From a virus, in the UHGV virus genome UHGV-1613795: 11,447 nucleotides of DNA; one strand, given 5' to 3'. The position numbers were made by a program. This document shows positions 6,001 to 9,000 of this stretch, piece after piece (position 1 is the first letter of the stretch; each line of letters begins with the position of its first letter).

Positions 6001-9000
6001 TCTGCTGTTACCCACTTGCGGAATTTGTGTGGGACTGAACCTTTATTGACTGCATCGCGGCAGCGCAGAACCAATGTATACATACCTGATTCGCTCACAA
6101 TGCTTAGATTCTGCTCACCACCAAGGGTGTAACTTAAAGTTACTCCCTTTTCATCGTCATCAAGTGCAGTAAGCGCCTTGCGTGAGTTAGTCAAAGCTAA
6201 AGCATCACAAACATCTTTAGCTACAAACCACGGCTCGCCGCACTTGTTAATGACGCGAATTTCACTGTCGCCAAATTTGAAGATGGTGAAATCGTTTTGT
6301 GCCTTTGCTATACTTTTCATGTCAATATTTCCCGATCAGATTTGTTGATGTAGAAGCCTCGCCAGTTCCCGCTGTCGGGGCTTCGTTATTTTTAGAGAGC
6401 ATTCCGCATTTTCTCCCGGTACTTCAACCACCAAGCAAGTCCCTGAACCAACACTGAGTTTTCTGACATCCCCTCTTCCTTGGCGATGCGTTTCACCTCC
6501 TCCTTAAAACGGTACGGATACCGAAGAGTTGTCTTCACTTCATTCTTTTCCATTGATCACTCCTTTTACGTAATGGCATTATGCCTTGAAAGCAATATGC
6601 CATCATTGAATATAAATAGCAATATGCCATCATTGTTTTTTTTGAGGTGATGTTATGGCTGAAAAGCAGGTTAAAGATTACGAAAAGTTTGTTGTGCGTT
6701 TCCCTGACGGGATGAGGGACGCGATTGCGGAGAGAGCCAAACGAAACGGGCGCTCTATGAACTCAGAGATTGTGCAGATACTGGAAGATGCCTTGAATGC
6801 AGAAAATACTCTTGGGGAAATAGCAGACAAAATCAACAGCGTCTCGGTTCCGTTAAATGTTGATGCGCTAGTTCAACTTCAAGCCCAAGTGATCGCCATG
6901 CAAAAAGAAATACAGGAAAAGTTCAGAGAGCAGAACGAAAAGTTGAGAGAACTGCTAAACAAAAAACCCACCTGACGGTGGGTTTTCATTTTTACCGTCC
7001 GACTTCAGTCAACAGGCACAAACAGAGAAAACGTTACAGGTGACTAAGGCATTGCACTGGAAAATGCCGCGTTTGTTGACGCCCGGCTAACTTGCTGATT
7101 GACGCTTCTGGTAAGAGCATCAACTGTTGTCGGGTTACTGTTAACAACTACCGTGCCAATAGTTGTACTGCTGCTACGGCTGTTGTCAATTTTTGATGTT
7201 GTCTGGCTTGGTGTTGAGGCGATGCGTTGCTGCTGCTGATAGTAAGCCAGCGTCTCGTTTTCTTTTGCATTAAGAGCGGCGCGAATCTTTGGTACATATT
7301 CTCGCGTTTCTTTCGGCAGGGTGTTCCAGTATTTGGATGATGGTGAATCAAACCCGGTACTGGATATATATTTTAACTTTTTGTCTACATTACCCATCCC
7401 CCAGTTGTAAGCCATCAGCGCATGGTTAACATTGCCTTTATAGTGCTTTAGCAAATCCCTCATGAACCTTTCAGCAGCAGCGCGAGATTTCACCTCATCA
7501 AGGCGCTCATCAATCCCATCCCCGACCTTTAACCCGTACGCTATGGCAGTATCCTTCATGAACTGATACGGACCAACAGCACCTTTCGGACTATAAAGTT
7601 TTTTACCACCACTCGATTCCACCTCACGAATGGCGTCAAGGAGAGAATCCATGCTTACTGGCTTTACTCCGTCAGGGAGAGGGATATCTGGCTGAATGTT
7701 ATTGCCATAAATCTCATCTCCTCTACGCCCAAAATCAGTATCAAAACCCATGCTGCGCATGGTATCTCCAAGTTCACGTTTAGAGTAATCAAACGATCCT
7801 TTAGCAGCCCCCTCAATGTTTTCCCTGTCATTGTAGAGATACAAACCATATGCTATTAACCCTGCTAACCATGGAGGAAGGGCGCCGCCTGTAAGTTTGC
7901 TTCCTACATATGCTGCTGCCAATAGTTTCAGAGCCTCTTCCGCACCACCAACTGCCTTTGTGAATTGCTTCGTCATATTCCCGGCGTCATTGAAAAAGCC
8001 AATGATGTCGCCATGATGTTTCTCAATCCAGGAACCAAAAGCCTTCATCCCGTCAATAACGTCTGGAGCGAATGCCATGGCTAAATTTTGCTTTAATCGG
8101 GAAAACTCTGAATCAAGTTGCCCAAGGGTGGCAGCAACCTTCTCCTGCTCTTTTATCCACCTGTTCAGTTGAAATTTCTGCTTTGTCGAAATAGTCCTGC
8201 TGGAACGACACGGTGATGTGTGCTTGCAGGGAAAGAGTTAACGTGTAACGCTCCTGCCACTGACTCTCGGCGTTGATCATCGGCGCCTGAATGGCAGGAG
8301 ATGAGTAAAGCGGTGCAAGCCGTGCATCAATAGCCTTGATGATGTCGTAGCCATATCCACTGGTGAATGTTGTTTCCAGTGCAATAGCTCTATCCCCTGC
8401 CCCCTGACCATAGATATCTACCTGAATATCAGCCTGGCGAACTTCCGTATATCCCATGGTGCTTGTGTCCGGAGAGCCGGTATCTTGTTTAAGCTCTCTC
8501 GTAGTGGATAGTCTGGTGAATCGCAAAGGAGTCAGGATACAGAACTGATCTTTGGGCATTGGTACACGGTTAGCCTGAGCCTGCAGGCATTTACCAGCGA
8601 TAGGTTCTATGTAGCCAGCAAGTACATCGATAATATTATCGACAGTGAAATCATTCATGGGCTTACCTGCAATACAGCAACCAGTCGGCACCAGTCAGGC
8701 CACAACTCTATTGGCTCAACAACAAGCCATTGTTCCCCGTTAATCACGAAGATATCTCCGCCCTGCTCCAGTTCTCGCTGAACACTGAAGTAATTACCAT
8801 TGACGTAAATCACTTTTGCCAGCCCCTGAATATTCAGTCCATCGACGTGTTGCATGTCGCCGCGACTGATTGGCTGTAGTTGAATGGTAACGTTCTGGTC
8901 AGGGAGATAAGACGGAATCGGCTTGCGACCGGGGCCGATAGTTTCACCTGCATACTTTTTCAGGATTGCCGGGATGTTGGGGTTAATGCTTGTGATCGCG

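What the first reader, a model, noticed from the sequence alone, without database searches (positions are those of the whole stretch)
7044..8078. Membrane-anchored SLT-domain protein with low-complexity C-terminal tail
Seen in sequence: transglycosylase signature elements (ES, GAVGPYQFM, AYNWGMG) follow a hydrophobic segment (LPPWLAGLIAYGLYLY), and the last 70 residues are S/T/N/Q-rich. Established knowledge: virion-associated transglycosylases help genome delivery through peptidoglycan, for example as internal or ejection proteins in podoviruses or as tape measure domains. The gene position, last before the cassette and after neck-type genes, resembles the P22 ejection-protein slot. The protein is too short to be a conventional tape measure.
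Basis: partly seen in the sequence, partly recalled or inferred. Interest (0 to 1): 0.4.

Follow-up and report, generated by a model that had tools for sequence, protein, structure and literature searches.

The report
Truncated phage tape-measure gene remnant
The "short membrane-anchored transglycosylase" is the surviving back half of a contractile-tail phage's tape-measure gene, left in a decayed E. coli prophage after a 3.3-kb deletion removed the tail sheath, the tail tube and the front of the gene; it is ordinary prophage decay.

Summary
The ORF (7044..8078, minus strand, 344 aa) is real and carries a genuine SLT lytic-transglycosylase domain. Pfam gives E=4.6e-19, the catalytic E154-S155 is present, and the predicted fold matches MltD, Slt70 and T7 gp16. 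It is not a complete gene. It equals residues 261-604 of a 604-aa protein (WP_001609804.1) that lies after the sheath, tube and chaperone genes and before the baseplate in intact E. coli prophages. Myoviruses GF-2 and Edno5 have the same layout, so this protein is the tape measure with a built-in transglycosylase (PHROG 2013). In the window a 3267-bp deletion, with its junction at 8153-8155 on a 3-nt microhomology, joins the neck-terminator gene to mid-tape-measure. It removes the sheath, tube and chaperone genes and tape-measure codons 1 to about 234. Two more scars lie at 9956/9957 (773 bp, capsid C-terminus) and near 11398 (terminase to scaffold). The prophage is therefore defective. The same junctions occur in an E. 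coli isolate assembly and in independent read-set assemblies, so they are not an artefact. The "P22 ejection-protein slot" is a by-product of the deletion. The start Met is not conserved. The "low-complexity" tail is a conserved C-terminal motif. The membrane-anchor call is weak. Interest is low.

The parts
7044..8078 (-). 344-aa ORF. It is the 3' remnant (residues 261-604) of a 604-aa tape-measure protein that carries an SLT domain. Its ATG is a fortuitous internal Met codon.
   Evidence: the full-length L002 protein reads ...LKQNLAMAFAPDVIDG..., identical apart from one residue; the Met column is A/I/T/L/M in homologues; the exact product is WP_249823698.1 of E. coli, and the named members of its 90% cluster are 604-605 aa.
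8079..8155 (-). Tape-measure-derived sequence (about codons 235-260) upstream of the ATG. It is now untranslated in the tape-measure frame and supplies the out-of-frame 13-aa tail of the terminator ORF.
   Evidence: alignment; translation shows no start codon in this frame before 8078 and no Shine-Dalgarno-like GGAG/AGGA in the 20 nt before the ATG; megablast homology to the intact gene ends at window 8155.
8153..8155 (.). Deletion junction 1, on a 3-nt TAA microhomology. Relative to the intact prophage, 3267 bp are missing: the last 3 codons of the neck terminator, the sheath (DUF3383), the tube (E217_Gp32-like), the assembly chaperone, a 67-aa ORF, and tape-measure codons 1 to about 234.
   Evidence: three-way alignment. 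(BLAST offsets 5007 versus 8274). (identity of the deleted genes).
7362..7655 (-). SLT lytic-transglycosylase domain (aa 142-239 by Pfam; structurally confident over about aa 141-280). The catalytic E154 codon is at 7617-7619.
7833..7880 (-). Moderately hydrophobic Gly/Ala/Tyr-rich segment LPPWLAGLIAYGLYLY. It resembles the hydrophobic stretches found inside tape-measure proteins and is not a convincing signal anchor.
   Evidence: KD19 maximum 1.07. (the segment is variable or absent in half of the family).
7047..7256 (-). S/T/N/Q-rich but conserved C-terminal tail (aa 275-344). It probably docks the tape measure onto the baseplate hub or tail tip.
   Evidence: conserved VNSNP..VDAL..RASTNAAFSS. 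The analogy is with Pa193 gp41 residues 840-858, which bind the tail tip and hub (PMC11456595). The docking role is inferred.
8113..8658 (-). Neck/tail terminator gene (Phage_tail_terminator_9). Its last 3 codons (NRP) are replaced by 13 out-of-frame residues (KRAGEGCCHPWAT) read from tape-measure DNA.
9956..9957 (.). Deletion junction 2. 773 bp are missing: the C-terminal third of the major capsid gene, a 115-aa head gene, and the first codons of the DUF4054/E217_gp27-like gene.
   Evidence: alignment..
11398..11399 (.). Junction 3. The 5' part of the DUF2213 gene, the head-morphogenesis gene, the portal, terL and terS (5430 bp in the intact relative) are replaced by 426 bp of unrelated DNA.
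5442..6975 (.). immI-like cassette: Arc (6655..6975, +), a small Arc-like ORF (6392..6553, -) and the Ant antirepressor (5442..6320, -). It is inserted between the tape-measure gene and the baseplate genes, as in GF-2 and Edno5.
481..5385 (-). Contractile-tail baseplate module: Dit-like (4570..5385), Pam3-gp18-like plug (4271..4573), hub (3397..4278), spike (2712..3404), sheath initiator (2356..2715), Baseplate_J (1130..2359), wedge/DUF2612 (481..1119).

Best explanation
The ORF is a gene remnant. Its ancestor is the tape-measure protein of a GF-2-like temperate myovirus, which joins a lambdoid early region to an E217/Pam3-type neck, tail and baseplate. That protein is about 600 aa, largely alpha-helical, and carries an SLT lytic-transglycosylase domain in its C-terminal third.

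In intact phages the likely mechanism is as follows, and it is inferred. The protein fills the tail-tube lumen and sets tail length. Its conserved C-terminal tail docks on the baseplate hub or tip. After sheath contraction it is expelled into the periplasm, where the SLT domain cuts glycan strands to open the way for the DNA.

In this window an illegitimate-recombination deletion of 3267 bp, at a 3-nt microhomology, fused the end of the neck-terminator gene to the middle of the tape-measure gene. This is shown directly. The sheath, tube and chaperone genes and the most conserved 260 N-terminal residues of the tape measure are gone. Gene finders call the remaining frame from the first internal ATG.

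Two further deletions removed the capsid C-terminus and the terminase, portal and scaffold genes. The prophage therefore cannot build heads or tails, and the fragment has no virion to act in. It is most likely a non-functional relic that is still intact only because the decay is recent: the copies are 99.99-100% identical.
For: - Identity to the C-terminal 344 of 604 residues of WP_001609804.1. DNA identity is 97-98.6% and stops at window 8155.
- The three-way alignment shows a clean switch from terminator-end sequence to mid-tape-measure sequence at a shared TAA.
- BLAST offsets give deletions of 3267 bp and 773 bp, plus a 5.4-kb replacement.
- All 16 complete E. coli genomes that cover at least 80% of the window hold it in a longer span and list the sheath gene (DUF3383) under the match. 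None of 5426 genomes has junction 1.
- The gene order terminator-sheath-tube-chaperone-small ORF-SLT protein-Arc/Ant-baseplate is found in the E. coli prophage, in GF-2 and in Edno5. Both phages are myoviruses by electron microscopy (PMC6372524).
- PHROG 2013 'lytic tail protein' scores E=5e-103, and the best stretch aligns to profile positions 477-655 of 657.
- Among the 120 homologues listed, 100 are 575-602 aa, and the named members of the 90% cluster are 604-605 aa.
- The missing N-terminal 260 residues are the most conserved part of the family, and the start Met is not conserved.
- Tape-measure length tracks tail length roughly: 568 aa with 81.6 nm, and 585 aa with 74.5 nm.
- Pa193 gp41, a structurally studied tape measure of an E217-type myovirus, also has an internal transglycosylase domain and a C-terminus docked on the tail tip.
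- The same junctions occur in NCBI isolate assembly GCA_002917295.1 and in Logan assemblies of other runs.
Against: - The fragment keeps an intact 344-codon frame with an intact catalytic domain and differs from the intact homologue by one residue, so loss of function is not visible in the sequence itself.
- Expression was not tested. Read-through transcription from the upstream neck genes and weak initiation at the ATG cannot be excluded.
- The tape-measure role of the full-length family rests on synteny, length, helical prediction and analogy. There is no direct structure or genetics for this family.
Confidence: 0.93

Rival explanations
1. One reading: a complete, stand-alone virion transglycosylase or ejection protein of a short-tailed (P22-like) phage, packaged and released to cut peptidoglycan during DNA delivery.
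For: - The SLT domain is real.
- PHROG 342 'internal virion protein with endolysin domain' and T7 gp16 match the domain.
- A P22 immI-like Arc/Ant cassette follows the gene.
Against: - Those matches cover only the SLT domain (aa 145-299 against positions 31-168 of a 1235-position profile).
- The ORF begins in the middle of a conserved 604-aa protein at a non-conserved Met.
- A deletion junction lies about 75 nt upstream.
- The downstream genes are sheath initiator, Baseplate_J, hub and plug.
- Every intact relative has a sheath and a tube.
- The capsid, portal and terminase genes are also destroyed.
Confidence: 0.02
2. Exapted fragment: the truncated gene is expressed from the fortuitous ATG and kept by the host as a membrane-associated or periplasmic lytic transglycosylase, or as some other beneficial cryptic-prophage function.
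For: - The reading frame and the catalytic motifs are intact.
- The same defective prophage is carried by several independent samples.
- Domestication of genes from defective prophages is known in general (my own knowledge).
Against: - The carriers are 99.99-100% identical over 11.4 kb, so intactness reflects recency, not selection.
- There is no Shine-Dalgarno-like sequence and no promoter match above the shuffle expectation upstream.
- There is no signal peptide, and the hydrophobic segment is weak.
- The lineage is absent from 5426 complete E. coli genomes.
Confidence: 0.04
3. Assembly artefact: a metagenome assembler collapsed or mis-joined the contig and created a false deletion.
For: The window is a metagenome scaffold (ENA ERZ28658029, scaffold_3858).
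Against: - Identical junctions 1 and 2 are found in an isolate genome assembly (NSKL01000113.1) and in Logan assemblies of other runs. Junction 1 is also in a third contig.
- The junctions show only 1-3 nt of microhomology, not a repeat long enough to mislead an assembler.
Confidence: 0.01

Closest known systems
E. coli prophage protein WP_001609804.1 (604 aa, 'transglycosylase SLT domain-containing protein') and its 90% cluster (444 members)
   Same: Residues 261-604 are identical to the window ORF except for one residue (S versus N). The downstream Arc/Ant cassette and baseplate are the same.
   Different: The window copy lacks residues 1-260. It also lacks the neighbouring sheath, tube and chaperone genes.
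Edwardsiella myoviruses GF-2 gp18 (568 aa) and Edno5 gp18 (585 aa), genus Gofduovirus; PHROG 2013 'lytic tail protein'
   Same: They are 30-35% identical over the whole 344 aa. The position after sheath, tube and chaperone and before the Arc/Ant cassette and baseplate is the same. The SLT domain sits in the C-terminal third.
   Different: They are full-length proteins in infectious phages with 75-82 nm contractile tails. The window copy is truncated and lies in a dead prophage.
Pseudomonas phage Pa193 gp41 / E217-type tape-measure protein
   Same: The neck, tube and collar proteins here hit E217 Pfam families. The Pa193 tape measure has an internal putative transglycosylase domain (residues 491-582), and its C-terminus binds the tail tip and hub (PMC11456595).
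   Different: It is 858 aa. No direct sequence comparison with Pa193 gp41 was made. Its phage is virulent with a larger genome.
T7 gp16 and other podovirus internal/ejection proteins with an N-terminal SLT domain
   Same: They share an SLT family-1 catalytic domain delivered from the virion into the periplasm.
   Different: The homology is limited to the domain. T7 gp16 is a 1318-aa head-internal core protein, not a tail-lumen tape measure, and the genomic context is different.
Bacterial MltD / Slt70 lytic transglycosylases
   Same: They are the best structural and sequence match for the catalytic domain, with the ES, GxxQ and AYNxG motifs.
   Different: The score is far below the MltD equivalog cut-off (50 bits against 508). 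There is no lipoprotein signal and there are no LysM domains. The origin here is phage, not host housekeeping.

Membership tests
SLT / family-1 lytic transglycosylase domain (Pfam PF01464) | Profile match above the curated threshold | tested here: met
   68.6 bits against a cut-off of 21.3, E=4.6e-19, aa 142-239.
SLT / family-1 lytic transglycosylase domain (Pfam PF01464) | Catalytic Glu in the E-S motif, plus the G-x-x-Q and A-Y-N-x-G motifs | tested here: met
   E154-S155, G169/Q172 and A223-Y224-N225-W226-G227 are invariant in 25 aligned homologues. The ES motif aligns with the ES of MltD 8rhe.
SLT / family-1 lytic transglycosylase domain (Pfam PF01464) | Goose-lysozyme-like alpha-helical fold | tested here: met
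   The AF2 domain has pLDDT 75-89. The top Foldseek hits are MltD (rmsd 2.6-3.0 A over 129 columns), Slt70, Cj0843, MltF and T7 gp16.
SLT / family-1 lytic transglycosylase domain (Pfam PF01464) | Muralytic activity producing 1,6-anhydroMurNAc | not testable with these tools
   Needs a zymogram or HPLC of the reaction products.
Myovirus tape-measure protein | Gene lies after the tube and tail-assembly-chaperone genes and before the baseplate hub | tested here: met
   Met for the full-length orthologues in the E. coli prophage, GF-2 and Edno5. In the window the upstream partners are deleted.
Myovirus tape-measure protein | Length scales with tail length (about 0.15 nm per residue, from my own knowledge) | tested here: inconclusive
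   GF-2: 568 aa and 81.6 nm (0.144 nm per aa). Edno5: 585 aa and 74.5 nm (0.127 nm per aa). Both are consistent, but there are only two points.
Myovirus tape-measure protein | Mostly extended alpha-helical protein with low-confidence monomer models | tested here: met
   The full-length homologue P0004 is helical across most of its length, including helices 2-90 and 233-280. pLDDT is below 50 outside the SLT domain apart from a moderate stretch near residues 160-210. This is weak evidence by its nature.
Myovirus tape-measure protein | Complete protein, including the conserved N-terminal part | tested here: not met
   The window ORF lacks residues 1-260, the most conserved part of the family. 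It derives from a tape-measure gene but is not a functional member.
Myovirus tape-measure protein | Located in the tail-tube lumen of virions | not testable with these tools
   Needs virion proteomics or cryo-EM of a GF-2-like phage.
P22-type ejection proteins / podovirus internal virion proteins | Homology beyond the lytic domain, and a short-tailed virion gene set without sheath or baseplate | tested here: not met
   Only the SLT domain matches PHROG 342 and T7 gp16. Sheath initiator, Baseplate_J, hub and plug genes are present. Intact relatives have a sheath and a tube.
Endolysin of a holin-endolysin lysis cassette | Adjacent holin and spanin genes in the late lysis module | tested here: not met
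   A separate holin/lysozyme/Rz cassette lies elsewhere, in the deletion-bearing contig L003 and in the intact prophage.

The most novel reading that the evidence does not exclude
The truncated tape-measure fragment is translated from its accidental ATG and retained by this E. coli lineage as a working, envelope-associated lytic transglycosylase. That would be a cryptic-prophage gene fragment exapted for host cell-wall remodelling or for interference with incoming phages.
Probability: 0.03. Interest if true: 0.35.

Novelty: already known. Interest (0 to 1): 0.08.

Why it matters
It matters little biologically. It is a textbook case of prophage decay by microhomology-mediated deletions.

Its practical value is as a caution. 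A gene caller, and a reader of raw sequence, will take the first internal ATG of a truncated gene as a bona fide start. NCBI lists the product as an ordinary protein, WP_249823698.1. The resulting false synteny (neck genes, then lysin, then immI cassette) mimics a podovirus layout.

It also documents two points about GF-2-like E. coli prophages. They carry an SLT domain inside the tape measure, and they carry an immI-like Arc/Ant cassette between the tape measure and the baseplate.

Tried and rejected
- DNA search of the SLT gene against 50,697 phage records found nothing. Only the Arc/Ant cassette of the window matches known phages at the DNA level. Relatives had to be found by protein search and in E. 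coli genomes.
- Exact-match scans for the 35-nt junction 1 sequence found nothing in the species-representative genomes or in the JGI metagenome collection. The junction was instead recovered through the exact-protein look-up.
- The promoter and terminator scan of 6900-8800 found matches at about the shuffle expectation, and nothing specific upstream of the ORF.
- NCBIfam gave only sub-threshold MltD and flagellar-transglycosylase domain hits, and no tape-measure model. Pfam found no tape-measure N-terminal family in the full-length protein.
- PDB sequence search found only SLT-domain hits.
- I considered that L007 might show a second independent deletion ending at nearly the same site, which could have hinted at a functional internal start. 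It is an IS66-family insertion. The coincidence is imposed by looking up the exact 344-aa product. The Met is also not conserved, so the idea was rejected.
- Two early script calls failed because the locus file was not yet available.

Full report
**Observation**

The minus-strand ORF 7044..8078 encodes 344 aa. The quoted motifs are all present: LPPWLAGLIAYGLYLY at aa 67-82, EVESS at 152-156, GAVGPYQFM at 166-174 and AYNWGMG at 223-229. The last 70 residues are 51% S/T/N/Q, against 15% elsewhere.

The SLT assignment is solid:
- Pfam PF01464 gives E=4.6e-19 over aa 142-239.
- PDB sequence hits are to MltD and T7 gp16, with the ES motif aligned.
- The AlphaFold model is confident only for about aa 141-280. 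Its best structural matches are MltD (129 columns, rmsd 2.6-3.0 A), Slt70, Cj0843, MltF and T7 gp16.

**What it really is**

PHROG 2013 ('lytic tail protein') matches at E=5e-103. The best stretch aligns to profile positions 477-655 of 657, which was the first sign that the ORF is a piece of something longer.

No phage record matches the gene at the DNA level. 307 of 5426 complete E. coli genomes do match, at 93-98.6% identity, and the homology runs past the ATG to window 8155 and then stops.

In E. coli FDAARGOS_1288 the matching gene is a 604-aa 'transglycosylase SLT domain-containing protein' (WP_001609804.1). Its translation contains ...LKQNLAMAFAPDVIDG.... The window ORF is residues 261-604, with a single substitution.

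In that prophage the gene order is neck terminator, sheath (DUF3383), tube (E217_Gp32 family), assembly chaperone (Phage_TAC_15), a 67-aa ORF, the SLT protein, the Arc/Ant cassette, then Dit-like, plug, hub, spike, sheath initiator and Baseplate_J. Edwardsiella phages GF-2 (gp18, 568 aa) and Edno5 (gp18, 585 aa) have the same order. They are 30-35% identical to the window ORF over its whole length. Both are myoviruses by EM, with tails of 81.6 and 74.5 nm (PMC6372524). That is 0.13-0.14 nm per residue, close to the classical tape-measure ratio (my own knowledge).

Among the 120 homologues listed, 100 are 575-602 aa, and the named members of the 90% cluster are 604-605 aa. A full-length homologue is predicted to be helical across most of its length, with low confidence outside the SLT domain, as is typical of tape measures. 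I conclude that the family is the tape-measure protein of these phages with a built-in lytic transglycosylase. Pa193 gp41 has the same arrangement, a transglycosylase domain at residues 491-582 and a C-terminus docked on the tail tip and hub (PMC11456595).

**The deletion**

A three-way alignment shows the window following the end of the terminator gene up to ...CAGGTGGATAA. It then switches cleanly to mid-tape-measure sequence, AAGAGCAGGAGAAGG.... The two parents share only TAA at the switch, at window 8153-8155.

BLAST offsets give a loss of 3267 bp. The lost DNA comprises:
- the last three terminator codons;
- the sheath, tube and chaperone genes;
- the small 67-aa ORF;
- tape-measure codons 1 to about 234.

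The terminator ORF now ends in 13 out-of-frame residues read from tape-measure DNA. The tape-measure frame has no start codon until the internal ATG at 8078. That ATG has no Shine-Dalgarno-like sequence before it, and no promoter match above shuffle expectation. The Met is A/I/T/L in most homologues. The missing 260 residues are the most conserved part of the family.

**The rest of the prophage is also broken**

- A 773-bp deletion at 9956/9957 removes the C-terminal third of the major capsid gene, a 115-aa head gene and the start of the next gene.
- At about 11398 the homology to the head module ends inside the DUF2213 gene. In the longer contig L003 the next homology to the intact prophage lies beyond terS. 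So terS, terL, the portal, the head-morphogenesis gene and most of DUF2213 (5430 bp) are replaced by 426 bp.
- All 16 complete genomes that cover at least 80% of the window hold it in a longer span and list the sheath gene under the match.

**Is it real?**

The window is ENA metagenome scaffold ZELL14-1_SAMEA2467017 scaffold_3858. Junctions 1 and 2 occur identically in E. coli isolate assembly GCA_002917295.1 (NSKL01000113.1) and in a Logan assembly of SRR8358205. Junction 1 also occurs in SRR23175576. These copies are 99.99-100% identical to the window. They represent one clonal, recently decayed prophage, not an assembly error.

- The 'hydrophobic anchor' has a best 19-residue Kyte-Doolittle mean of 1.07, which is below the usual transmembrane threshold. 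It is replaced by other sequence in half of the family. It looks like the glycine- and alanine-rich hydrophobic stretches common inside tape measures, not a signal anchor.
- The 'low-complexity tail' is strongly conserved (VNSNP..VDAL..RASTNAAFSS). By analogy with Pa193 it is probably the part that docks on the hub or tip. This role is inferred.
- The protein is not the endolysin. Separate holin/lysozyme/Rz cassettes exist.
- The likeness to the P22 'ejection-protein slot' is produced by the deletion. One real homology contributes to it: the Arc/Ant cassette is immI-like. It is the only part of the window with close DNA matches in known phages. In this phage group it lies between the tape measure and the baseplate.

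**Mechanism**

In intact relatives the following is inferred. The roughly 600-aa protein sets tail length inside the tube. It is expelled on sheath contraction, and its SLT domain cleaves peptidoglycan locally to let the DNA conduit through.

In this window the following is shown directly. The gene is truncated and its assembly partners are deleted. The fragment most likely does nothing. Its intact frame reflects how recent the decay is.

**Rivals**

| Rival | Estimated probability |
|---|---|
| Native podovirus ejection protein | 0.02 |
| Exapted host enzyme | 0.04 |
| Assembly artefact | 0.01 |

**Verdict**

The functional and contextual reading is wrong in its main point. The family is known, the event is ordinary, and interest is low.

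Noticed in passing
L007:1-160 (Logan SRR28368680_9550): In another sample the same tape-measure gene is interrupted about 45 nt upstream of the same ATG by the end of an IS66-family element. Bases 1-112 are 100% identical to IS66-like ends in many E. coli plasmids and chromosomes. This is an independent disruption that yields the same 344-aa gene call.
   Followed up: yes
window 9956-9957: A second deletion scar of 773 bp. It truncates the major capsid gene to 226 of 346 aa, removes a 115-aa head gene and removes the first codons of the DUF4054/E217_gp27-like gene. 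It explains the odd overlapping ORFs 9949..10629 and 9567..10076.
   Followed up: yes
window 11398-11447 (and L003:4395-4743): A third scar. Homology to the head module ends inside the DUF2213 (scaffold/protease-like) gene. terS, terL, the portal and the head-morphogenesis gene (about 5.4 kb) are replaced by 426 bp that carry a 78-aa ORF of unknown origin.
   Followed up: partly
window 5402-6982: The Arc / small Arc-like / Ant cassette is the only part of the window with close DNA matches in sequenced phages: Kapi1 and EC.P3 at 96-97%, and many Stx phages at about 89%. It behaves as a mobile immI-like module that occupies the tape-measure/baseplate gap in GF-2, Edno5 and the E. coli prophages. 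Its content varies; the FDAARGOS_1288 prophage has about 850 bp more.
   Followed up: partly
window 8113-8155: The neck-terminator ORF gained a 13-residue out-of-frame tail (KRAGEGCCHPWAT) read from tape-measure DNA, in place of its native NRP end. Gene callers report 181 aa, against 171 aa in intact prophages.
   Followed up: yes
L002 + L008 (E. coli FDAARGOS_1288 prophage): The intact relative is a hybrid. It joins a lambdoid early, Nin, Q and lysis region with tRNA-Thr and tRNA-Asn to a GF-2/E217/Pam3-type myovirus structural module. GtrA/GtrB-type O-antigen modification genes lie next to the tail-fibre end.
   Followed up: no
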